A stretch of DNA of 26,938 bases from Planctomycetota bacterium (GTDB taxonomy: Bacteria; Planctomycetota; Phycisphaerae; Sedimentisphaerales; Anaerobacaceae), in assembly GCA_003644295.1 (NCBI GenBank), contig QNBZ01000001.1, positions 1 through 26,938 on the forward strand, written 5' to 3'. The notes beneath the pieces were generated by a model, which did no database searches, was not told the origin of the DNA, and saw only the letters and a program-made list of their open reading frames with translations. Position 1 is the stretch's first letter. Every line of letters starts with the position of its first letter. Position numbers and translations under genes: made by a program. This document shows positions 1,370 to 26,937 of this stretch, one piece after another.

Positions 1370-4300
1370 ACAGCCGTAGCTCTTGCCTTAAACTTCAATT
1401 CATTGAGAAATTCATCGATATTCGTAACGCCTTGGATAATTATGGGACCGTGAATAACATACTCTTCTCTGTTCTCTTCTATTGGTGTTGGTAGTCTTCC
1501 ACCTACATAAGCACCATATTGGAGTTTTAAATCAGGGAAATAACGAGGAATAATTGATTTAAGTAAGCGTTCACCATATCTCCTATACCGACCACCAAGT
1601 GGTATAACAGCCTCCGGTCCAGCCTCACCAAGAAGTGCATTTACAGGTCCCTTAACTATCGCTTTACCTAGCGTTCTCGGATTAAGTGGCTTTGGAATAC
1701 TTCTTGCAGCATTCATAATAGAGGTAGCCACACCAGCTAATCCGCCAAATGCATAAGGCCAAGGTATCTGTCCAGCTTCCATAAGTTCAGCAAGTTTTTT
1801 CCTCATTAGGTCGACAGCAGCTTGTAAACTCTTCGTCGTTGCAATCACCTGCTCTTTCCCTTGTTGAGAAATAGCAACAACTCCCCAATGTCCTAGCGGA
1901 ATTCCACTCCTACCACCTGGACGCACAACATAGGTCTTGATATAATCGACGGGTGTGGCTGCACCACCGCCACCTGCACCTCCGCCTGCACCACCTCCAG
2001 CTCCTCCGCCTGCACCGCCGCCTGCACCACCAGTCATACCTTCTGTAATGGTTCTAATTATCAGCTCAAGAATCCACTTGCCCATCGGTGATTTTGTGAA
2101 ACCTGCTCTTTCAAGCATTTCTGTAACTCTATTGATGAAATTCTGTGTATCCAAGACTGTATCAATAGTGAGCTCAGGATTGTTTGTGTCGAGAATAATC
2201 TGAAGAGCGCGTAATCTTTCTGGAGTGAGATGATTAAGAAATGTATTCCAATCTTCAGAATCCCATTTTGTAATCACATCAACAGATTGGCCTGATAAAC
2301 TCGAAACAGCTTCTAAGAATTGCCTGCGTTTTTCAACTGTCATAGAATTGATGAATGCGTCCCAGTCTTGGTCATCCCAGGAAGTAGTAATACTGAGTGT
2401 AAAGTCCATATCTTGCGAACGCATATATTTCATTAATTCTTGAAAATCACCATGGAAGCCCTTGAGGAGCATATCTGCAAAGTCATATCGGAGAGCGTAT
2501 TGGAATAAAGCTTCACTGCTTTTGTAATAAAGTGATATCATCTCTTTTAGAGTATCATTCATTGTATTGAGGACATTGGTTAAAGATTCTTTCAAGTCTG
2601 CTAATTCAGTAGTGATATCATACATTGCTTCTTCTTGAGAGTATGCATCTTCGACTGCATCAACAAACGCATCAAGAGATTCGACTTGCAATGCTGTTGC
2701 TATTTGAGCAAGAGTCATGCCATCTGCATACTCTCCAGTGATTTCTGCTATCTTCACTAACGCTGCAGCCGCTATCAATTGAGCATCTGTGAATTCGCTG
2801 AGAGAGTCGTAATTCGTCTGATACAGAGTATTCAATGTCTGGAGTATTTCTTCTGCAGTGCTTCCAAAAACATTCGTAAGATTTAAGCGTGATATCAACT
2901 CATCATATATTGATGCAACATTATCAACTTCTCCTGCTTCGTCCTGAAGAGCTCTTGCCAATCTCGCTATTATACCAGCAACACCATCTATTGACTCAGC
3001 TAAATCTTCACTCACTCCGTACATTTCAAGTTCGTAAGAGATGGCTTCTCCAGTGTTATCAATTAAATCTAAGAATTCTTTAATCACTTCAGCCGAAGCA
3101 GCGCCTATTTCTTCTAGGCTTGATACTAGTGGTGTAAGAACATCTTTGAATGCACCTATAGCATCATTCAATTCCTGCTGCGCTTCTCTGTAAGCAATAA
3201 CTATAGAAAGCTCCTCATCAGTAAGGAAGGTAAGTTCATCCAAACCTTCTCCGGTGTTTATATAGTTGTCAACCAGCTGACGCTGTTCTTCATTTAGACG
3301 TTCATAAACTGCAGCCAACTTCGGATTTAATGCAAGTAATTTACCTTTTGCTCTCATCATCTGTGCATATCCGTCTATAAGGTCCTGATTTATCAAACCT
3401 TCTTCTGCAAGTTGTTTGAACAATTCATCAAGTTGCTCATCTTCTCCAGTTCTCAGTTTATAGAGCTTGTATTCAATTTCATAAAGTTTCTTCCTAGCTT
3501 CATATAGTAATTTAGCTTTTTCTGCTAGAGCTCGTTCACCCTTCTCCAATAAGAACTGATATGCCTGCTCTTTAGCTTCAAGCGATGTTATTTCAGCCTC
3601 AATCTGAATATAACGTTCACGAAGGTCTATTAAATCTTCTGCAGTCCTCAGCAAATCCTTCTGCACATCTGTCAGCATCATAATCGTCTTACCTTCCGCA
3701 GTTTCAACTTCTACGCCATGTTCCATTATATATTGCAATTGTCTACGCAATGTTGCCAATTGTTTTGTAGTTTGTGCATTTTGCTCCTCCAATTGCATAC
3801 GCTCTCGCATTGCAGCAAATAATTTATATTCAGCATTTCTAACCTCATTTGATTGAGCACCATAAATTGCAATAGCATTTGCTAAATCCTTAATTGCTTG
3901 CTCTTCTTCTCTCAATGCAGCATTTAATTCATTTTGAGCAACGAATAATTCATAAGACTGCTGAGCCATATCTTCGAGTAGTCCAACAATCTTATCGAAA
4001 GGACCTGGCAAAGCTCTCATAGCCTGTAGGAAGTTCTTAAGAGAAGTTAAGAAGTCTTTCCGTGCATCCTCAGCTTCACGCTCTGCTTGGACATATGTCT
4101 CTACAGCTTCTCTCACTCGTCTATAATCATCAGCGGCGGTACGAAGAACATCATTTAATGCACTTTGAGTATGCGCTAGCCTGTCATTAGCTTCTCTTAA
4201 TCTAGATACAGAATAACTGAGTCCAACTAACTCTCCGGCAAGCGGACCAAGAATTTTAGCAGCTTCAAAATATGTGGTCTTGAATATCTCTATGAAGGCA

Positions 4301-6381
4301 TCTTTGATTTCCTGATACATCCTCATATCAACTGGATAATATCCACCGGTATATATCACGTTCCATGCAAGTGTAACAACTCCTTCGACTGATACTTCTT
4401 TACCGAGTCTCTTCTCTAATTCGCTAGCAACTTCTTGCCAGACATCCATGTAATCTCTTGCATTCTCAACCATATGTCTAAATGCATGCTTTGCAGCTTC
4501 GTCCATATTTTTCGTCTCTCTCAGATATCTATTGCCAACTTGAATTATTGAATTCCTCCATTCCTCAGAGAAATGAATACTTTCGAGTAGAGTGAGATTC
4601 AGACTCCTAAGTTCATCTTTTGCTTTTCTTGCCGAGCTGCCGAAGAGAATAAAGTAGCTAACTGCGGTGCCTAATGCAATGAGAAGTAGTGTGATAGGAT
4701 TCTTGAGCATTGCCGCATTAAGTGCTCTTTGTGAAAGTGCGGCAGCACCTGTCGCAGCAGCAAGCGTCTGTTGAGCTTTAGCATATAATTCGGCTGCTAT
4801 AGCTGCTTGGAATGTAATTTTCGCATTTCTACTCAATGCAGCAGCTTGAAGGAGCTGGAGACCTATGACGTATTTAGTCATGAAGGAGACGACAGCCATT
4901 GCAGCCTTGTAACCAATCAAAAGCGAAATAAGAATCTTGAGTGGAGGAAGAACTACAGTCTTCCATTTTCTGAAGCCTGCTGATATAGCTTCTATCATTG
5001 GAACAACCTTTGCTCTTATTATACTAGCACCCCACTCGAACATTGGAATGAGTGATTGTCCTAGAGTGATAGAAGCAGCTTGAAGAGCATTAGAAAGCTT
5101 AACTAATGCACCCCAAAGAGTCCTCTCCTGATATTTTGCAACCGATTCTGTGATTCCCTGAGACATTTCGAGCATCGCTGCAAACCGTGCAACATCATCA
5201 GCTGCATCGACGAGAACCATTGCAGATGCAGCCGTCCTAGCCCTGAACATTGCAGCAGCTTCTGTTGCACCAAAACCAGCAGCCTTAAGCTTATAAAGTA
5301 TCTCAACTAAATTATAGTATTTTGGATTTACATCATCTGCAGTAAGTCCTAATTGCTCAAGAGCTTCAGCCGCTTGGTCTGTCGGCTTTAGCAATCTGGT
5401 GAGTATCATATTGAGCCTCTGTCCTGCTTGTGAACCCTCTAAACCTCTATCAACCAATGCCGATACTGCAGCTACGGTTTCTTCGAGAGATAGACCTAAA
5501 GAGCCTGCAGTTGCACCAACATATTTCATAGCTTCTCGTAATCTTTGGAAGTTCATGAAAGACTTTGTTATAGCTGCGGTGAATACATCGACTACTCTTG
5601 CAGTTTCTGACATATCAAGATTGAATGATTTCAATACGGTGAGAACTGCATATGTGGCATCTTCTAATGAAGTTTGGGTTGCAGCAGCATAGTTAAGAAT
5701 TGGGATGAGTTCCTTCTTTGTAAGCTTGGAAACATCATAACCAGCTGATGCAATCTGATAGAAAGCCTTAGCAACATCAGTAGCTGAGAAAACTGTTTCC
5801 TTAGAGAGAGTCAGTGCAAGCTTTGAAAGGTGGTCAACAACTTCATCGAATGCATCGCCAAGATAACCAGAGATTGTCGCAGCATTAACTATTGCTCTCT
5901 GGAATTCTTTAGTGCTTTCAGCCATCTCTCTGAATCCTCGAACAATTGACATTACTAGTTGTACACCAATTGTGAATGTGATATAGTGAGCAATCTTTGC
6001 AATCAAATTCCTAAAGGAGAAGATGATTCTGAGTGTTCCCAATATGGATTCTCGAGACCTGCGATACATCATAGAAAATGCTGCTGGCAGCTCTTTGCTG
6101 ATATCCGTTTTCATCTTTTGTGTTGCCTCTCTGGTCTTTTCTGCGGCTTTATCAATTGCGATTTGAGCTTTAGCAGTAGACTGCGCAGCAGCTTTAGTTA
6201 TATTCTTTACAGCCTTCTCAAATTGCTGTGCAGTGACTCCGAATGGTTTAAAACCTGCTGCGATTTCTTTAGAGATGGCATTAAGTCCAGCTTGGAGTAC
6301 TTTTCTAAATTGCTTTAGCTGTCCTGCAATTCCTCGGAAATCGAGGACTAATCTAACCGATAATTCACCAAGGGAAGGCAT
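1366..6381 (-). CDS. Tail tape measure protein (TP901-type core), 1671 aa
   Basis: Long Ala/Leu/Glu helical protein with the core FSATDVAKAFYQIASAG...LREAMKYVGATAGSLGLSLEETVAAVSALVDRGLEGSQAG, hydrophobic segments, and the C-terminal GEAGPEAVIPL motif typical of tape measures. Confidence 0.95.
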   Translation of the reverse strand: MPSLGELSVRLVLDFRGIAGQLKQFRKVLQAGLNAISKEIAAGFKPFGVTAQQFEKAVKNITKAAAQSTAKAQIAIDKAAEKTREATQKMKTDISKELPAAFSMMYRRSRESILGTLRIIFSFRNLIAKIAHYITFTIGVQLVMSIVRGFREMAESTKEFQRAIVNAATISGYLGDAFDEVVDHLSKLALTLSKETVFSATDVAKAFYQIASAGYDVSKLTKKELIPILNYAAATQTSLEDATYAVLTVLKSFNLDMSETARVVDVFTAAITKSFMNFQRLREAMKYVGATAGSLGLSLEETVAAVSALVDRGLEGSQAGQRLNMILTRLLKPTDQAAEALEQLGLTADDVNPKYYNLVEILYKLKAAGFGATEAAAMFRARTAASAMVLVDAADDVARFAAMLEMSQGITESVAKYQERTLWGALVKLSNALQAASITLGQSLIPMFEWGASIIRAKVVPMIEAISAGFRKWKTVVLPPLKILISLLIGYKAAMAVVSFMTKYVIGLQLLQAAALSRNAKITFQAAIAAELYAKAQQTLAAATGAAALSQRALNAAMLKNPITLLLIALGTAVSYFILFGSSARKAKDELRSLNLTLLESIHFSEEWRNSIIQVGNRYLRETKNMDEAAKHAFRHMVENARDYMDVWQEVASELEKRLGKEVSVEGVVTLAWNVIYTGGYYPVDMRMYQEIKDAFIEIFKTTYFEAAKILGPLAGELVGLSYSVSRLREANDRLAHTQSALNDVLRTAADDYRRVREAVETYVQAEREAEDARKDFLTSLKNFLQAMRALPGPFDKIVGLLEDMAQQSYELFVAQNELNAALREEEQAIKDLANAIAIYGAQSNEVRNAEYKLFAAMRERMQLEEQNAQTTKQLATLRRQLQYIMEHGVEVETAEGKTIMMLTDVQKDLLRTAEDLIDLRERYIQIEAEITSLEAKEQAYQFLLEKGERALAEKAKLLYEARKKLYEIEYKLYKLRTGEDEQLDELFKQLAEEGLINQDLIDGYAQMMRAKGKLLALNPKLAAVYERLNEEQRQLVDNYINTGEGLDELTFLTDEELSIVIAYREAQQELNDAIGAFKDVLTPLVSSLEEIGAASAEVIKEFLDLIDNTGEAISYELEMYGVSEDLAESIDGVAGIIARLARALQDEAGEVDNVASIYDELISRLNLTNVFGSTAEEILQTLNTLYQTNYDSLSEFTDAQLIAAAALVKIAEITGEYADGMTLAQIATALQVESLDAFVDAVEDAYSQEEAMYDITTELADLKESLTNVLNTMNDTLKEMISLYYKSSEALFQYALRYDFADMLLKGFHGDFQELMKYMRSQDMDFTLSITTSWDDQDWDAFINSMTVEKRRQFLEAVSSLSGQSVDVITKWDSEDWNTFLNHLTPERLRALQIILDTNNPELTIDTVLDTQNFINRVTEMLERAGFTKSPMGKWILELIIRTITEGMTGGAGGGAGGGAGGGAGGGAGGGGAATPVDYIKTYVVRPGGRSGIPLGHWGVVAISQQGKEQVIATTKSLQAAVDLMRKKLAELMEAGQIPWPYAFGGLAGVATSIMNAARSIPKPLNPRTLGKAIVKGPVNALLGEAGPEAVIPLGGRYRRYGERLLKSIIPRYFPDLKLQYGAYVGGRLPTPIEENREEYVIHGPIIIQGVTNIDEFLNELKFKARATAV
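1963..2031 (-). repeat. Gly-Ala low-complexity repeat GG(AGGG)5G inside the tape measure
   Basis: Direct translation GGAGGGAGGGAGGGAGGGAGGGG; 12-nt degenerate DNA period. Confidence 0.95.
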
Positions 6382-22730: not shown

Positions 22731-24449
22731 TTAACATCTATATATCGTGCCGTGCTTTATAACAATATCTGAGTACTCTTCTTCCTCTTCTTCATCCTCT
22801 GACTTATTGATTGTCTCCGGTGGTTTCTCTGCTTTTTCGAGAGCCTCCAATCTCTTCTGCAGTGCATTTATCTGGTCATCCTTTGCTTTAATCTCAAGTT
22901 TTAATTGCTCAATCTCCTTTGCCTTCTCGCTATCGCTTTTAAATGCTTCGTATTTCTCCCAAAGGTCATCAATAGCCTTGACAACAACTTCATGCCACTC
23001 TGCCTTGGTTGGATATGGGTACTTCGATGGGTAAGGATAGCTTGTCGGATATGGGTAAGGATACGGATAATTGCTCCTGCGAAGGTTTGCAACCATATCA
23101 AGAATAGTCTGCAGCTTTGCCTTCGTACTGTCACTCTTTACTTCATCAATTAATTTTGTAAGCGCATCAACAATAGCCCCGACTAATCCACCCTGCTTTT
23201 CGGTTGTCTCTTCACCTTCCTTATCCTCGTCTTCCTGCTTCTCTTCAACAGTCTCTTCTTCCTTTACTTCCTCTTTCGTTTCTTCTTCCTCTTCTTTGGT
23301 TTTACTGTTGACAAGCTCAGATACAATCTTTGTGAGGCTCTCCAACTTTCTCTCTATTTCTTCTTTCCAAGTCTCAATGTCCTCTGTTTCCGTTTTCTCT
23401 TCGCTGACTGTCTCTGTCTGCTCTTCGGTGTTGCACTCTTCATCTTTTACGACACCAGTCTCCAATATGTCTTCAGTCATATTCTCATTTGTCTTCTCAC
23501 ATCCACATACATCTTCTGATTTAGATATCACTATAAAGCCTGAAAGAGGATTAGCTGGAGATTCGCAAACTGAAACCTCATAGATGTTAATCTTATCAAT
23601 TACTGTATAACATTGGTTCTCGTCACACTCTCTATGCGAAAGCAATGCTTCTCCAGCTATAGAAAATGAATTCAATTTACCTTTCAGAATATCTTCCCAA
23701 ACCCTATTTGCTATCTCTAAATCGTCTCTTATTTCTGCAACTATGAAAAGACCCTTATCATCTACATGAGTCTTTAAATTGCCGTATTCTCTAAGGATTC
23801 GGCCAATTTGTATATTCTGATGCTTGACCATAACGTTGGCATAGAACTCATCATTTAAGAGGGTTTTAATTGCATCCTTAAGAACTTCAACTGGAATAAT
23901 TTCATTATCCTTATCAACTATAGCTACGGATGCATAACCTGCAATAATTCTTCGTGACTTCTTTGCTTTGCCATTCGACATGACTCTAAAGTTTCCTTGC
24001 AAATCAAAATGAATGCCATTAGACTTTGACATATGAACAATCTGTGGATTCTTGATTGGAATGAATGTTTCTTCGTATATGGGGACATAAGAAGTAAAGG
24101 GGCCTGCTGATGTATAATGAATGGAAACGTATTTAGGTACCTCATCATATGGAACTCCAAGAATGTCTGCAAACATTCTGTATATTCTGAAGTCAAAAGC
24201 CATCCTCTGCTCTGGAGACCAATCTTCTCCGCGAACAACAATGTCTATATCGTTATTGCTCTCACCATGAACTGCGAGAGAGCCAACAATATATGCAACT
24301 GGCTTTCTAACTGAGAATGGCTTCAACTTATTAAGTATATCTTTAAGCTTTATCTTTTTTCCTTTGTCGCCACGTCCTGAGGGAGGAACTGGAGCGTATT
24401 CTAACTCACCGAGTTGAGATAGCGTTTTCAACTCCTTAGTTTCAATCAT
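22731..24449 (-). CDS. Fusion: Pol-beta-superfamily nucleotidyltransferase-like domain + HK97 prohead protease + acidic coiled-coil scaffold, ~572 aa
   Basis: YIVGSLAVHGESNNDIDIVV (GS...DxD); IIAGYASVAIVDKDNEII, MVKHQ, NSFSIAG, IYEVSVCESPANP (His/Ser protease); Glu-rich helical C-terminus. ATG 24449 forms an ATGA overlap with the upstream stop. Confidence 0.88.
   Translation of the reverse strand: MIETKELKTLSQLGELEYAPVPPSGRGDKGKKIKLKDILNKLKPFSVRKPVAYIVGSLAVHGESNNDIDIVVRGEDWSPEQRMAFDFRIYRMFADILGVPYDEVPKYVSIHYTSAGPFTSYVPIYEETFIPIKNPQIVHMSKSNGIHFDLQGNFRVMSNGKAKKSRRIIAGYASVAIVDKDNEIIPVEVLKDAIKTLLNDEFYANVMVKHQNIQIGRILREYGNLKTHVDDKGLFIVAEIRDDLEIANRVWEDILKGKLNSFSIAGEALLSHRECDENQCYTVIDKINIYEVSVCESPANPLSGFIVISKSEDVCGCEKTNENMTEDILETGVVKDEECNTEEQTETVSEEKTETEDIETWKEEIERKLESLTKIVSELVNSKTKEEEEETKEEVKEEETVEEKQEDEDKEGEETTEKQGGLVGAIVDALTKLIDEVKSDSTKAKLQTILDMVANLRRSNYPYPYPYPTSYPYPSKYPYPTKAEWHEVVVKAIDDLWEKYEAFKSDSEKAKEIEQLKLEIKAKDDQINALQKRLEALEKAEKPPETINKSEDEEEEEEYSDIVIKHGTIYRC
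23010..23069 (-). repeat. Tyr-Pro repeat (YPYPYPYPTSYPYPSKYPYP) in the scaffold region
   Basis: Direct translation; eight YP dipeptides in 20 aa. Confidence 0.9.
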
Positions 24450-24739
24450 GCTCCTAAGATTATTTTCCCGACTAGTCCTAGAAGGAAGACGAACATTACT
24501 CCAAGTAGCCAATAGAGAATTGAAACCTTCATTTTAACGGCGGATATGTCGGATATAAGGTCTTTTATAACACCACTTCGCATCGAATTTACCGCAGCCC
24601 ATATCTCATCAGTCTTGCTGTCGATTTTATCCTCTAGACTTCTTATTCTTACTGATAGTTCATCTTCATTCTTATTTATCGATTCTAAGGTAGCAAGCAC
24701 TCTACCATAGAATTCACGAAAGTTTTCTTCCAGCGTCAT
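24446..24739 (-). CDS. Coiled-coil protein with a C-terminal transmembrane helix, 97 aa
   Basis: Heptad-like N-terminal 70 aa then ILYWLLGVMFVFLLGLVGKII. Confidence 0.8.
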   Translation of the reverse strand: MTLEENFREFYGRVLATLESINKNEDELSVRIRSLEDKIDSKTDEIWAAVNSMRSGVIKDLISDISAVKMKVSILYWLLGVMFVFLLGLVGKIILGA

Positions 24740-24744
24740 AATCC

Positions 24745-24819
24745 TTATTTCGTAAGCTCTTTAAGAATTTTAAAATACAGAATTTTAAGTTCTTCTATTG
24801 CTTTCCCGACTCCATTCAT
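24745..24819 (-). CDS. 24-aa micro-ORF MNGVGKAIEELKILYFKILKELTK
   Basis: Not in the ORF track. ATG overlaps the upstream TGA (ATGA) and its TAA lies 5 nt before the next ATG, exactly filling the gap. Confidence 0.55.
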   Translation of the reverse strand: MNGVGKAIEELKILYFKILKELTK

Positions 24820-25820
24820 GGTTTACATGACAGCTTTTCAGAAAACTTCTCTACAGACATTTCTCTATATGCTTCTCTTCCGAATTTATCGAGCTCTTCA
24901 GCTTTTATTGGATAGTAATGGCCACAATCGGCATGGAGTATTGAATCCATTGGATAAGGGTCATCGTATGCCTTCCAAACCCACCAGCGTTTATCTTTCC
25001 CAGCTCTAAAGCATCTAATTATGAAACGGCCATTAAAGAGTTCTTGATTACGCTTAGGCATGTCCGTGCTTGGATAGAGGAAATATTCATGCAAATCAGG
25101 TCTCTGAACTCCTGCTTTCACCTTACCAAGCCAAATCGCACACATATATGCATTTTTGTATGCGGTGGCACCTACGTCTCCAGCTTCAATGATATACGAT
25201 TTATCAAAGAGGACATATTTCTCTATTAGTTTTGCATCCTCGGGACCAATAATCAAGTCTTCCTTTGCTTTAACCGCCTGAGTAGGTTCCAACGCCGATG
25301 GCTTGACAATTGCAAGTCCTTTTGATGCATTACCTGTCTTTGGGTCCCTCCGACCTATAATTGTATCGAAGTAATCCGGAATATGGTCTTGAGTGATTAC
25401 CCATTGAACGAAGGAATTCTTGAACTTCATTCTCAAATCCACATGAATCGAGTGACCTTGAATTAATTTTGCAAAGGACAACTTACCCTCAAGATATTTC
25501 TTAGTATCGTCTAAATTAAGTCCGCGAATATGCATCTGTGCCCAAGCAATGCCTTCGTCGTAGTCAACATAGCATATCTTTGGAAGCGGCTCCAATTCCT
25601 TCTTCAATTTTTCATAGATATCTTCTGGAATATGCTTGAGAGATAGCCATTCGCAAACATCTTCTTTTGTAATAGCTTTATCCTTGAGTATTTTACGCCA
25701 AGTGTCTGGCACCGCATCTGAATAATAGAGTTTGGTGTACTCGGCCAATGAGAGATTCTCAAGTGAAGATGAGTCTACAAATTGAAGAGAGCCATCTGGA
25801 TATTCAACTAAGACGCGCAT
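24816..25820 (-). CDS. LigD-type 3'-phosphoesterase (PE)-like protein with N-terminal extension, ~334 aa
   Basis: AQMH...HSIHVDLRMKF...QW matches the PE QxH...HxDxR..W metal/phosphate motif; C-terminal VGAT...IWLG...FNGRFIIR...RWWVWK parallels LigD YGAG.V.IWD.G...L.G.W.L...WLLIK. Confidence 0.75.
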   Translation of the reverse strand: MRVLVEYPDGSLQFVDSSSLENLSLAEYTKLYYSDAVPDTWRKILKDKAITKEDVCEWLSLKHIPEDIYEKLKKELEPLPKICYVDYDEGIAWAQMHIRGLNLDDTKKYLEGKLSFAKLIQGHSIHVDLRMKFKNSFVQWVITQDHIPDYFDTIIGRRDPKTGNASKGLAIVKPSALEPTQAVKAKEDLIIGPEDAKLIEKYVLFDKSYIIEAGDVGATAYKNAYMCAIWLGKVKAGVQRPDLHEYFLYPSTDMPKRNQELFNGRFIIRCFRAGKDKRWWVWKAYDDPYPMDSILHADCGHYYPIKAEELDKFGREAYREMSVEKFSEKLSCKP

Positions 25821-26937
25821 CGCCAATCTTAATTATTCTAACATAGGTGTCACCAATTTTGGCAATGTCTTGTTGAATATGTTGCAGCTCTTCAATTGGT
25901 ATTCGTTGCGGCTCAAATGATGATAATTTATCAATAGTTTCCAATGAATCCGTAACATCTTTCTCAGGGATTGGTTCCAACACTCTTCCTATGTAAAAGG
26001 AATACCGTGGATATTCTGGAAATTTCTCGTTATCAAACTTCAGCACTTCTTCGGCCGCTATCCTTATAATATCGCCGATTTTGATTTGTGTTCTCTCTTT
26101 ATGATTATCTGATTTGCCCATCAATGTTACAAATATCACTGAATTATCATTCAGATACTTCTTGCAGTCTTTGCCAACAGCTACAATTTTACCATTCTTG
26201 TAGCAATGAACTTTACCATACCAATCTTTTGTTGTCATATTTAGATACGCTTCAGCATAATCGCGCGGTGTATCATATCCAAGGTAGTAGTTATAAACGT
26301 CCTTAGTGCCTTTCACTAGCTTCTTATCGAGGACTCGCAAGTCAAGCTCATGATAGAACTTCACCTTCATCCAATAATGATTCTGAGGAGACTCGTATGG
26401 ACCATCCAGACGTTTCAGCATTACACCCTCTGCACAGAACTTTGGTCTACCATTCTTAGCATCACGAATAATCTCTGCAGCCTTTAGGATGCAATCGATA
26501 TTAGAACCATCACAAATATATCCATCAGCTTTCTTTTCGAAGGTAGTAGCAATTCTTTCTATCCAAATGTGCTCTGTTGGTTTCAATCGAGAGAGATATT
26601 CTAGACGTTCATGAAGAGGAAGATTGCGTAAATCTTCTCCTTCAAAGTAAATTATATCGAATACGACAATTATTGCATAACGTTCCAGCTCTTCTCCAGA
26701 TGCTTTTGAGTTTAAGAGTGAATTCGCCACCGTCCTATGAAGCATTTCTTTACCATTAGGATGAATAGCTAGAAATTCTCCATCAAGAATGGTATTGTCG
26801 GGAAAGTTGTCTTCGATTTCCTTTATTATAGCCGGTATTCTTTTCGACACATTCGGGTCCTTCTCTTTCACGTCTTCTGGGTCAACAAATGCAAATCCCT
26901 TTCCGTTGACTTTACCAATCGTCATTCTGAGTCCGTC
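25804..26937 (-). CDS. ATP-dependent DNA ligase (adenylation + OB domains), 5'-truncated by the window edge
   Basis: Frame is open past the ORF-track start: 26937-26926 reads D-G-L-R (end of motif I KxDGxR); ILDGEF (III), VVFDII (IIIa), EGVMLK (IV), WMKVK (V), then an OB-like domain with a degenerate motif VI (IPEK for RxDK). Confidence 0.9.
   Translation of the reverse strand, partial: DGLRMTIGKVNGKGFAFVDPEDVKEKDPNVSKRIPAIIKEIEDNFPDNTILDGEFLAIHPNGKEMLHRTVANSLLNSKASGEELERYAIIVVFDIIYFEGEDLRNLPLHERLEYLSRLKPTEHIWIERIATTFEKKADGYICDGSNIDCILKAAEIIRDAKNGRPKFCAEGVMLKRLDGPYESPQNHYWMKVKFYHELDLRVLDKKLVKGTKDVYNYYLGYDTPRDYAEAYLNMTTKDWYGKVHCYKNGKIVAVGKDCKKYLNDNSVIFVTLMGKSDNHKERTQIKIGDIIRIAAEEVLKFDNEKFPEYPRYSFYIGRVLEPIPEKDVTDSLETIDKLSSFEPQRIPIEELQHIQQDIAKIGDTYVRIIKIGDARLS

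What the first reader, a model, noticed from the sequence alone, without database searches (positions are those of the whole stretch)
23517..24449. Nucleotidyltransferase-like domain fused to the prohead protease, with Lys-Ser sites at both domain borders
Seen: GS...DID motif domain (aa ~55-152 of the 593-aa track ORF) precedes the protease; the expected third carboxylate strand reads VSIH, followed by GP and PxY. MSKS (24032-24021) and ISKS (23528-23517) lie at the NTase/protease and protease/scaffold junctions; TKA, FKS, EKA and NKS occur in the scaffold. Known: the HK97 protease cleaves its capsid protein at a Lys-Ser bond. Inference: a polyprotein that releases the NTase inside the procapsid.
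Basis: partly seen in the sequence, partly recalled or inferred. Interest (0 to 1): 0.7.

Follow-up and report, generated by a model that had tools for sequence, protein, structure and literature searches.

The report
Nucleotidyltransferase domain fused to head protease
A tailed virus binned with an archaeal genome joins a small, undescribed nucleotide-transferring domain to its capsid-maturation protease and scaffold; the domain always travels with a neighbouring DNA ligase and DNA-end-cleaning enzyme, so the virus probably loads part of a DNA-end repair kit into its capsid.

Summary
Gene 22731-24449 (minus strand, 572 aa from the ATG) has three parts: a ~140-aa N-terminal domain (NTD) with GS...DID, an HK97-type S78 protease (H210/S263) and an acidic coiled-coil scaffold.

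- **Fold:** the NTD models confidently (pLDDT 85.5). Its best structural matches, though weak, are minimal nucleotidyltransferases. Its profile matches MNT and PolX motifs about as well as those two match each other. No Pfam, PHROGs or NCBIfam model reaches significance on it.
- **Spread:** at least 257 cluster representatives, often directly before a LigD-type phosphoesterase or an ATP-dependent DNA ligase, sometimes in giant proteins ending in a prohead protease.
- **Context:** in 39 related viral loci, an intact NTD and an upstream phosphoesterase gene (ligase too in 14 of 15) are present or absent together. Two loci without those genes carry decayed NTDs, and one NTD holds an intein at its invariant GPF|T motif.
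- **Lys-Ser sites:** both start predicted flexible linkers. Only ISKS is conserved; MSKS is not. Cleavage and release in the procapsid remain untested.

The scan has reported fully fused versions of this kit in other genomes. This window holds a split version, with only the NTD on the protease.

The parts
22731..24449 (-). Whole gene: NTD + S78 prohead protease + scaffold (572 aa plus stop)
   Evidence: ORF list and translation. The ATG at 24449 overlaps the upstream stop. 108 homologues found, with the fusion conserved.
24027..24449 (-). N-terminal nucleotidyltransferase-like domain (NTD), aa 1-141
   Evidence: AF2 pLDDT 85.5. Top Foldseek and VIA matches are minimal NTases. hhalign to MNT gives 75% and to PolX 67%. 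257 relatives at E<=1e-3.
24375..24407 (-). Conserved N-terminal motif ELEYAPVPPSG (aa 15-25), role unknown
   Evidence: Majority-conserved across about 160 members: A 124, S 123, G 123, P 98, Y 86. Lower model confidence, pLDDT 62-79.
24279..24284 (-). G56-S57, at the end of strand beta1
   Evidence: G56 is present in 161/161 and position 57 is G or S in 159/161. It aligns with the FGS of MNT and the aGS of PolX.
24243..24251 (-). D67-I-D69 on strand beta2, the two metal-binding carboxylates
   Evidence: D67 in 158/161; D69 in 158/161, with E in the other 3. It aligns with the DIDLLV of MNT and the GDIDIL of PolX.
24177..24191 (-). F87-R88-x-x-R91 on helix alpha3, family-specific conserved arginines
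   Evidence: R88 and R91 are each present in 160/161.
24114..24128 (-). Strand beta3, VSIHY (aa 108-112), followed by T113
   Evidence: Strand assignment. The wider family has D or E at 113 in 80% of members. The protease-fused subgroup has none there and carries H109/H111 instead.
24093..24104 (-). G116-P-F-T119 motif
   Evidence: T119 is present in 157/161. In locus L050 a LAGLIDADG intein is inserted exactly between GPF and T.
24072..24074 (-). E126 on strand beta4 (YVPIYEETF), candidate third carboxylate
   Evidence: D or E at this position in 74% of the family. A low-confidence global hhalign pairs it with the VD of the PolX third-Asp strand. This is an inference.
24021..24032 (-). M140-S-K-S at the end of the NTD
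   Evidence: M140 is conserved in about 90% of members, including copies internal to giant proteins and copies at C-termini, so it is not a start codon. K142-S143 is not conserved.
23961..24026 (-). Low-confidence linker, aa 142-163, containing the conserved K161-A162
   Evidence: pLDDT below 50. K161-[SA] is present in 21/30. The segment IPxxLxGNF also occurs in homologues without the NTD, so it belongs to the protease.
23520..23960 (-). HK97-type S78 serine protease, aa 164-310, with H210 (23820-23822) and S263 (23661-23663)
   Evidence: Pfam PF04586 E 1.9e-12. TIGR01543 E 1.5e-12. H210 and S263 are invariant in alignment A1.
23517..23528 (-). I308-S-K-S311, the end of the last protease strand and the start of linker 2
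   Evidence: K310 is present in 28/30 and K-[SA] in 17/30. The segment with pLDDT below 50 starts at residue 311.
23478..23507 (-). Conserved C315-x-C317, then M324 six residues after the second Cys (6-9 residues in relatives)
   Evidence: The pattern VCxxC-x(5-8)-M recurs in about 45 related loci. M324 may be an internal start for the scaffold or simply a linker feature. Shine-Dalgarno evidence is inconsistent.
22734..23480 (-). Acidic coiled-coil scaffold, aa 324-572, with YPYP repeats (23022-23069) and a C-terminal hairpin (22734-22778)
   Evidence: AF2 helices at 353-390, 421-458 and 485-540, and strands at 562-571. The YPYP block is conserved in A1.
24816..26937 (-). Upstream partner genes: ATP-dependent DNA ligase (25804-26937, open at the 5' end) and LigD-PE-like phosphoesterase (24816-25826)
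   Evidence: Pfam DNA_ligase_A_M E 7e-17. These genes co-occur with an intact NTD in related loci and form one ORF in most relatives.

Best explanation
The gene encodes a three-part head-assembly protein.

**What each part is**
- The N-terminal ~140 residues are a minimal nucleotidyltransferase domain of the DNA-polymerase-beta superfamily. It belongs to a family that no Pfam, PHROGs or NCBIfam model matches at a significant level.
- The middle part is an HK97-type serine protease.
- The C-terminal part is the scaffold that binds the capsid interior.

**What the NTD belongs to (shown by comparison)**
- The NTD is one member of a recurrent viral trio: ATP-dependent DNA ligase, LigD-type 3'-phosphoesterase and NTD.
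- The trio follows the logic of bacterial LigD (polymerase, phosphoesterase, ligase), with a Pol-beta-type domain in the place of the LigD primase-polymerase.

**How it probably works (inferred)**
- Because the NTD is fused to the protease-scaffold, dozens of copies would be co-assembled inside each procapsid.
- When the protease fires, the scaffold is degraded. The folded ~16-kDa NTD, alone or still attached to the protease, would stay trapped in the head.
- It would then leave with the DNA at infection and act with the ligase and phosphoesterase on the ends or breaks of the incoming genome, adding nucleotides to 3' ends.

Cleavage at the Lys-Ser bonds is possible but is not supported as a family rule.
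For: **Fold and motifs**
- The AF2 model is confident (pLDDT 85.5) and has the order beta(GS)-alpha-beta(DxD)-alpha-beta-beta.
- The top six VIA matches are all minimal NTases, at Z 4.2-4.8. The top Foldseek rows are MNT antitoxins, with probability up to 0.93.
- hhalign of a 161-sequence NTD profile against 30 PF01909 MNTs gives probability 75%, P 2.5e-5. Against 27 PolX palms it gives 67%, P 5e-5. The control, MNT against PolX, gives 71%, P 3.6e-5.
- G56 is invariant, and D67, D69, R88, R91 and T119 are present in 96-100% of members.

**Link to the ligase and phosphoesterase (PE)**
- Of 53 non-S78 relatives, 23 carry a DNA ligase domain, 13 a D12 methylase and 9 a C-terminal XkdF-type prohead protease.
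- The NTD lies directly before PE or ligase in at least 25 cluster representatives.
- In IMG/VR loci with at least 3.5 kb of upstream sequence: NTD+/PE+ 15, NTD-/PE- 22, NTD-/PE+ 0. The two NTD+/PE- loci have NTDs that lost G56, D67, D69 and GPFT.
- An intein sits at GPF|T119 in L050.
- In the ANME-1 virus ANMV-1, the annotated 'DNA ligase' is an NTD-ligase-PE fusion.

**Packaging**
- The fusion to protease and scaffold is conserved in more than 40 homologues.
- Iyer et al. 2017 note that assemblin-like peptidases always sit at the C-termini of polyvalent proteins and predict that they process these proteins during virion assembly.
- Philosof et al. 2017 recorded an unexpected ligase inside the structural module of archaeal magroviruses.
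Against: - Pfam NTP_transf_2 and Polbeta hits are below threshold (E 0.13 and 0.15).
- An hmmsearch against PDB sequences found no NTase.
- The structural Z scores (at most 4.8) are barely above unrelated beta-alpha-beta folds such as tautomerase/MIF (Z 4.0-4.1).
- In this subgroup the acidic residue after strand beta3 (D113 in 80% of other members) is replaced by T or N, so catalysis may be altered or lost.
- The domain has no fingers or thumb to hold a primer.
- Nothing shows that the ligase or the phosphoesterase of this virus enters the capsid.
- The NTD/protease linker can be only 1-2 residues long in homologues, so release of a free NTD may not happen.
- The co-variation of NTD and PE rests on only 2 independent pairs when restricted to well-supported branches.
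Confidence: 0.55

Rival explanations
1. The NTD-ligase-phosphoesterase set repairs RNA, not DNA. It would restore tRNAs cut by host anticodon nucleases, with the NTD rebuilding 3' ends as a CCA-adding enzyme does.
For: Three of 53 relatives also carry a 2H (2'-5' RNA ligase/LigT-type) phosphoesterase and one carries an RNA_ligase domain. CCA-adding enzymes appear among the weak Foldseek rows. LigD-type PE acts on 3'-ribonucleotide ends (established knowledge).
Against: The ligase domain is the DNA_ligase_A_M type in 23/53 relatives. D12 DNA adenine methylases are the second most common partner, in 13/53. The NTD has no tRNA-binding body or tail domain.
Confidence: 0.15
2. The NTD is a protein-modifying enzyme like the MNT antitoxins. 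It would AMPylate a viral or host protein, or it is only a nucleotide-binding regulator of the protease, and it is never released.
For: The closest solved structures are MNT antitoxins that AMPylate HEPN toxins. The linker to the protease is very short in some homologues. The subgroup lacks the acidic residue at position 113.
Against: This reading does not explain the strict co-occurrence with, and frequent direct fusion to, phosphoesterase and ligase. It also does not explain the decay of the NTD where those genes are missing. No HEPN partner was seen.
Confidence: 0.12
3. The fusion is only a way to co-express the parts. Internal starts, such as M324 after the conserved VCxxC, make a separate scaffold as in lambda C/Nu3 or Mu I/Z. 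The Lys-Ser sites are not cleavage sites, and the NTD acts in the cytoplasm late in infection, for example on genome ends before packaging.
For: A Met 6-9 residues after VCxxC is conserved in about 45 loci, within an otherwise variable linker. K142-S143 is not conserved. Nested protease/scaffold genes are established in lambda and Mu (established knowledge).
Against: Shine-Dalgarno-like sequences before that Met are inconsistent. Any full-length product still carries the scaffold and would enter procapsids. The giant relatives place the same enzymes in front of a C-terminal prohead protease.
Confidence: 0.12
4. The NTD is a decaying or purely structural remnant with no function of its own in this virus.
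For: The acidic residue at position 113 is lost in the subgroup. Truly decayed copies exist in L052 and L078.
Against: In the window protein, and in 45/45 protease-fused homologues, G56, D67, D69, R88, R91 and T119 are all kept. Decay is seen only where the ligase and PE genes are gone. An intein targets its most conserved motif.
Confidence: 0.05

Closest known systems
Polyvalent proteins of phages and conjugative elements (Iyer, Burroughs, Anand, de Souza, Aravind 2017, PMC5512222)
   Same: Enzymatic effector domains are joined in one polypeptide with a virion-assembly (assemblin-like) peptidase. These proteins are predicted to be packaged in the head and processed there.
   Different: Here the chain is short: one effector, the protease and the scaffold. 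The protease is internal rather than C-terminal. The Pol-beta NTase that the paper describes is a different family, from firmicute conjugative elements and fused to ArdC-N. The paper's text mentions ligase only three times, and the passages shown concern ATP-grasp RNA ligases. It does not mention LigD.
Bacterial LigD (POL-PE-LIG non-homologous end-joining enzyme)
   Same: A nucleotide-adding domain, a 3'-phosphoesterase and an ATP-dependent ligase are combined, often in one polypeptide. In relatives the orders NTD-PE...LIG and NTD-LIG-PE both occur.
   Different: The LigD polymerase is an archaeo-eukaryotic primase-fold domain of about 300 aa. This NTD is a ~140-aa Pol-beta-type minimal domain. 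No Ku partner was sought, and the setting is a viral head module.
Minimal nucleotidyltransferases (MNT, Pfam PF01909; for example MntA/HEPN-MNT 8xeh, 7ae9; HI0073 1no5)
   Same: Size, strand and helix order, and the hG[GS]...DxD motif are shared. These are the best structural and profile matches.
   Different: No significant sequence match (E 0.13). There are extra conserved FRxxR and GPFT motifs, an N-terminal EYAPxPPSG segment and a conserved C-terminal Met. There is no HEPN partner.
Family X DNA polymerase palm (Pfam PF14792)
   Same: The motif aGS-x7-ETxGDIDIL resembles the family consensus VGG-x5-TxGDIDIL. hhalign gives 67%, the same level as MNT against PolX.
   Different: Only the first 40 columns align. 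The fingers, thumb and 8-kDa domains are absent.
T4 internal proteins and Alt, and SPN3US/phiKZ ejection proteins cut by the prohead protease
   Same: These are head-packaged proteins, trimmed by the maturation protease and ejected with the DNA (established knowledge; PMC5512222 introduction; PMC10052503 abstract).
   Different: Those cargoes use short targeting peptides and are separate genes. Here the cargo is fused to the protease-scaffold itself.
Lambda C/Nu3 and Mu I/Z nested protease-scaffold genes
   Same: Protease and scaffold lie in one reading frame, and a conserved internal Met sits at their border.
   Different: Internal initiation has not been shown here, and those proteins carry no N-terminal enzyme domain.

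Membership tests
[quoted passage not shown] | hG[GS] at the end of the first core strand | tested here: met
   G56 is present in 161/161 and position 57 is G or S in 159/161. It lies at the end of strand E45-55.
[quoted passage not shown] | Dh[DE]h on the second core strand, 9-13 residues after the GS | tested here: met
   D67-I-D69 lies on strand E68-72 with a spacing of 9. D67 is present in 158/161 and D69 in 158/161 (plus E in 3).
[quoted passage not shown] | Third carboxylate on a later strand of the same sheet | tested here: inconclusive
   The family has D113 (80%) and D/E126 (74%). The window protein has T113 and E126.
[quoted passage not shown] | Alpha-beta-alpha-beta-alpha-beta core fold resembling solved members | tested here: inconclusive
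   The top six VIA rows are MNTs, but at Z 4.2-4.8, with unrelated folds at Z 4.0-4.1. The best Foldseek E-value is 0.067.
[quoted passage not shown] | Sequence or profile match to a curated family model | tested here: inconclusive
   Pfam PF01909 gives E 0.13 and PF18765 gives E 0.15, both below cut-off. hhalign gives 75% to MNT and 67% to PolX, the same level as the MNT-PolX control at 71%.
Peptidase S78 (HK97-type prohead protease) | Match above Pfam's gathering score | tested here: met
   PF04586 scores 48 bits against a cut-off of 21, E 1.9e-12. The TIGR01543 equivalog cut-off of 59 bits is not reached (47.9 bits).
Peptidase S78 (HK97-type prohead protease) | Conserved catalytic His and Ser | tested here: met
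   H210 and S263 are invariant in 30 homologues.
Peptidase S78 (HK97-type prohead protease) | Cleavage after Lys, as at HK97 K103/S104 | not testable with these tools
   The HK97 site is confirmed in PMC10275583. Here only positions and conservation can be given.
Polyvalent proteins (Iyer et al. 2017) | Two or more effector domains in one polypeptide of a phage or conjugative element, in a virion or transfer context | tested here: inconclusive
   The window protein has one effector domain plus the protease and the scaffold. Relatives have 3-7 domains.
LigD | Primase-polymerase (AEP) POL domain | not tested
   I did not search the window or its relatives for an AEP polymerase domain. The NTD that occupies the nucleotide-adding place is Pol-beta-like and only ~140 aa, so I treat the set as an analogue of LigD and not a member.
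LigD | ATP-dependent ligase plus 3'-phosphoesterase | tested here: met
   The ligase matches Pfam at E 7e-17. The PE-like gene lies next to it, is fused to the ligase in relatives, and one relative matches LigD_N.

The most novel reading that the evidence does not exclude
Tailed viruses of archaea and bacteria carry, inside the capsid, a self-contained three-enzyme DNA end-repair kit: a new minimal PolX-like polymerase, a LigD-type phosphoesterase and a ligase. The kit is loaded by fusion to the prohead protease-scaffold and ejected with the genome. It would reseal or heal the incoming DNA after attack by host nucleases, or join the genome ends. In that case the NTD would be the smallest known nucleic-acid polymerase module and a functional replacement for the LigD primase-polymerase.
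Probability: 0.3. Interest if true: 0.8.

Novelty: new variant of a known kind. Interest (0 to 1): 0.6.

Why it matters
- **How archaeal viruses survive entry.** If the domain is packaged and active, this would be a clear case of a virus delivering DNA-repair enzymes with its genome. For viruses of uncultivated sediment archaea, how incoming DNA survives entry is unknown.
- **An unannotated enzyme family.** The domain has at least 257 cluster representatives at 50% identity and no significant match to any Pfam, PHROGs or NCBIfam model. In published genomes it sits inside proteins annotated only as 'DNA ligase', as in ANMV-1.
- **A possible minimal enzyme.** A ~140-aa Pol-beta-type domain that works with a ligase could be a useful minimal end-modifying enzyme.
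- **Open experiments.** The window protein is small enough to express, so cleavage mapping and activity tests are straightforward.

Tried and rejected
- **Internal start at M140: rejected.** The Met is kept in about 90% of members, including copies in the middle of 1000-2000-aa proteins and copies 4-8 residues from a C-terminus. No ribosome-binding site precedes it.
- **Shared C-terminal capsid-targeting tail on ligase and scaffold (IIKIGDARL against VIKHGTIY): rejected.** The ligase tail is not conserved, and in most relatives ligase and PE are one ORF with a different, basic tail.
- **Four-Cys zinc site (C275, C280, C315, C317) that would place ISKS inside the fold: not supported.** AF2 models residues 311-356 at pLDDT about 30. 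The question stays open.
- **Shine-Dalgarno test for an internal scaffold start at M324: inconclusive**.
- **hmmsearch of the family profile against PDB sequences:** only coiled-coil noise.
- **BFVD viral fold search:** no usable match.
- **Independent-pairs test of NTD/PE co-variation:** only 2 pairs on well-supported branches, so no significance can be claimed.
Full report
**1. What is at the coordinates**

The finding lies in one minus-strand ORF. The ORF list gives 22731-24512 (593 aa from a TTG). The ATG at 24449 overlaps the stop of the upstream 97-aa ORF as ATGA, and homologues start at the equivalent Met. I therefore take the gene as 22731-24449, 572 aa.

- GS at 56-57, DID at 67-69, VSIHY at 108-112, GP at 116-117, PIY at 123-125.
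- MSKS at 24021-24032, ISKS at 23517-23528.
- SFSIAG, with the serine at 263.

The middle of the protein is an HK97-type prohead protease:
- Pfam PF04586 gives E 1.9e-12, 48 bits against a cut-off of 21.
- TIGR01543 gives E 1.5e-12.
- H210 and S263 are invariant in 30 homologues.

The neighbours place the gene in a head module. A cement protein and an HK97-fold major capsid protein lie downstream. An ATP-dependent DNA ligase and a LigD-PE-like gene lie upstream.

**2. Is the N-terminal part a nucleotidyltransferase?**

By itself the motif proves little. I estimate that G[GS]-x9-13-Dx[DE] would appear by chance in about one in five proteins of this size. The curated models do not reach significance: NTP_transf_2 E 0.13 and Polbeta E 0.15, a PHROGs 'nucleotidyltransferase' family E 0.21, and nothing relevant in NCBIfam.

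The case rests on four other lines.

(a) *Conservation.* A phmmer search of 1.84 billion cluster representatives found 257 proteins at E<=1e-3.
- In 161-165 aligned domains G56 is invariant, and position 57 is G or S.
- D67, D69, F87, R88, R91, G116, P117 and T119 are present in 92-99% of members, with the catalytic and arginine positions at 96-99%.
- Position 126 is D or E in 74%.

(b) *Predicted fold.* AlphaFold2 on a 68-row alignment gave pLDDT 85.5. GS lies at the end of strand 45-55, DID on strand 68-72, then a long helix (79-97) and two more strands. This is the order of the Pol-beta core.

(c) *Structure search.* The top Foldseek rows are MNT antitoxins and other minimal nucleotidyltransferases (best E 0.067, probability 0.93). 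In the exhaustive VIA search the six best of 48,161 chains are all minimal nucleotidyltransferases (Z 4.2-4.8, 64-72 residues aligned, rmsd 2.9-4.1 Å). Tautomerase/MIF folds follow at Z 4.0-4.1, so this line is weak on its own.

(d) *Calibrated profile comparison.* I built alignments of 30 PF01909 proteins and 27 PolX palms taken from genomes with the genome search.
- NTD family against MNT: probability 75%, P 2.5e-5.
- NTD family against PolX: probability 67%, P 5e-5.
- In both cases the alignment is exactly on the GS...DxD block.
- Control, MNT against PolX (two undisputed members of the superfamily): 71%, P 3.6e-5.

My conclusion is that this is a distinct, unmodelled family of the Pol-beta superfamily (about 85% confidence).

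The third carboxylate is unsettled.
- In the wider family it is followed by D113 (80%). The protease-fused subgroup has T or N there and histidines at 109 and 111.
- E126 on the next strand (D/E in 74% of the family) is the better candidate. A low-confidence global alignment pairs it with the third-Asp strand of PolX. That is inference, and I could not measure distances in the model.

**3. What the domain keeps company with**

The same ~130-aa module occurs at internal positions of proteins of 1000-2190 aa.

Pfam scans of 53 relatives that lack the S78 fusion gave:
- DNA_ligase_A_M in 23
- D12 DNA methylase in 13
- a C-terminal XkdF-type prohead protease (S78_2) in 9
- 2H phosphoesterase in 3
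- Tad3 in 2
- inteins in several

Single-sequence searches with the window's own ligase and phosphoesterase place one or the other directly after the NTD in at least 25 representatives. Eleven of them have a gap of 30 residues or less between NTD and PE.

In GenBank phage records the only hit is the ANME-1 virus ANMV-1. Its annotated 'ATP-dependent DNA ligase' (866 aa) is NTD(11-136)-ligase-PE.

**4. A natural experiment in related viruses**

An IMG/VR scan returned 52 loci with a related protease. The usual gene order is ligase-PE (usually one ORF), a small ORF, NTD-protease-scaffold, cement, then capsid.

Among the 39 loci with at least 3.5 kb of upstream sequence:

| NTD on the protease | PE gene upstream | Loci |
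|---|---|---|
| intact | yes (ligase too in 14 of 15) | 15 |
| absent | no | 22 |
| absent | yes | 0 |
| present but decayed | no | 2 (L052, L078) |

The Fisher test gives 5e-9, but the loci are related, so that figure overstates the evidence. In L052 and L078 the NTD has decayed or is truncated: G56 to K, D67 to K or N, D69 to N or K, and GPFT lost.

On a protease-domain tree the two states are intermixed. The best tree needs 8 changes, and always both traits change together. Only 2 independent pairs sit on well-supported branches, so I claim a consistent pattern and not a significant one.

In L050 a LAGLIDADG intein, with canonical Ser1 and ...HN|T ends, is inserted exactly between GPF and the near-invariant T119. 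Inteins usually sit in the functional cores of proteins that matter.

Together these results tie the NTD functionally to the ligase and phosphoesterase. They also argue that the NTD is under selection as long as those genes are present.

**5. The Lys-Ser sites and the domain borders**

The full-length AF2 model (mean pLDDT 65.7) has confident blocks at 1-141 and 164-310. The low-confidence segments run 142-163 and 311-356.

Conservation separates the two sites.
- K142-S143 is present only in the nearest relatives. In some homologues just 1-2 residues separate M140 from the conserved IPxxLxGNF segment, which also occurs in proteases without an NTD.
- K310 is present in 28/30, and K-[SA] in 17/30.
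- Three further K-[SA] positions are conserved: K161 just before the first protease strand (21/30), and K521 (21/30) and K539 (18/30) in the C-terminal coiled coil.
- K-[SA] dipeptides are twice as frequent as expected (13 against 6.5, p about 0.009). The shuffle ignores local composition.

HK97 does cut at K103/S104 (PMC10275583), so Lys specificity is a fair hypothesis, but nothing here tests it.

There is an alternative for the second border. After ISK, about 45 loci share VCxxC followed 6-9 residues later by a Met, in an otherwise variable linker. This may mark an internal start for a separate scaffold protein, as in lambda C/Nu3 and Mu I/Z. Ribosome-binding sequences there are inconsistent.

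M140 itself is not a start codon. It is kept in copies buried in giant proteins.

**6. Most likely mechanism**

*Shown by comparison:* the NTD is the third member of a ligase / 3'-phosphoesterase / NTD set, and relatives often weld that set to a prohead protease.

*Inferred:*
- In this virus the NTD rides into the procapsid on the protease-scaffold.
- The scaffold is then degraded.
- The folded domain stays in the head, leaves with the DNA, and acts with the ligase and phosphoesterase on DNA ends. This parallels the polymerase-phosphoesterase-ligase logic of LigD, with a Pol-beta-type module in place of the primase-polymerase.

The frequent D12 DNA methylase partners favour DNA over RNA as the substrate.

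*Unknown:*
- whether the domain is cut free;
- whether this virus's ligase-PE also enters the capsid;
- whether the subgroup's altered beta3 changes the chemistry.

**7. Host and setting**

The window is the whole of contig C1 of a 1.82-Mb, 82%-complete bin. That bin encodes ribosomal protein S24e, which rang only in the archaeal control genomes. Binning does not prove the host. It does agree with the inteins, with the ANME-1 virus relative, and with the ligase reported inside the structural module of archaeal magroviruses (PMC5434244).

**8. Novelty**

The general principle is published: effector domains joined to a virion-assembly peptidase, packaged and processed (PMC5512222).

I did not find the following in the searchable literature:
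- this NTD family;
- its obligate partnership with ligase and phosphoesterase;
- its fusion to the N-terminus of a protease-scaffold.

Earlier follow-ups in this scan reported fully fused NTase-PE-ligase-protease polyproteins in several other genomes. I reached the same family independently through. This window holds a split variant, with ligase and PE as separate genes and only the NTD on the protease. It also provides the co-loss and decay evidence. I rate it a new variant of a known kind, with interest 0.6.

Noticed in passing
L050:6636-8075: A LAGLIDADG intein of about 320 aa is inserted in the NTD exactly between GPF and the near-invariant Thr (...NSGPF|SVHPD...LVHN|TAYIPIYEE). Other family members carry inteins in the protease part (P0077, P0091-P0095).
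   Followed up: partly
window 25804-25826: The ligase and the PE-like gene overlap by 23 nt in different frames here and in the 99%-identical L031. In most related loci they are one continuous ligase-PE ORF with a conserved basic tail (KFGREAYREES..KKL). The split could be a real gene fission, a frameshift or a sequencing error.
   Followed up: partly
window 23478-23507 and 23610-23627: There are four conserved cysteines: C275 and C280 in a protease hairpin, and VC315xC317 just after ISKS. A Met follows 6-9 residues later and is conserved in about 45 loci. This could be a zinc site, an internal start for the scaffold, or both. AF2 leaves the CxxC unstructured.
   Followed up: partly
window 23022-23069: The scaffold contains a YPYPYPYPTSYPYPSK(YPYPTK) repeat block that is conserved across the family (consensus YPYPxPxxYPxPSKYPYP), usually followed by K-[ASD]. 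I know of no such motif in scaffolding proteins. It may be the capsid- or portal-binding element.
   Followed up: no
window 22800-23528: Short repeats lie around Lys-Ser bonds. I[SN]KSED occurs twice (aa 308-313 and 547-552) and KSDS[TE]KAK occurs twice (aa 438-445 and 504-511). The first copy of the octapeptide is not conserved in the closest homologue.
   Followed up: partly
window 24446-24739: A 97-aa ORF with a coiled-coil N-terminal half and a C-terminal transmembrane segment lies between the PE gene and the NTD-protease gene. Its stop overlaps the next start (ATGA). It is conserved in the nearest relatives only (L031-L037, L051). Its function is unknown.
   Followed up: no
L115 (KP703175.1) 3200-5800: The published ANME-1 virus ANMV-1 encodes an 866-aa protein annotated 'ATP-dependent DNA ligase'. 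It is really NTD(11-136)-ligase(192-468)-PE(487-662) plus about 200 unassigned residues. It follows a MutT-like hydrolase gene.
   Followed up: partly
L053, L056, L057, L061, L064, L074, L076 (about 2 kb upstream of the protease): Several relatives that lack the NTD, ligase and PE carry a second gene resembling the major capsid protein upstream of the protease, in addition to the normal capsid gene downstream.
   Followed up: no
P0133 (79-315), P0236 (445-701): Two large proteins carry tandem duplicated NTDs.
   Followed up: no
L042, L049, L063, L065, L067: The number of cement-protein paralogues between scaffold and capsid gene varies from one (this window) to four in related viruses.
   Followed up: no
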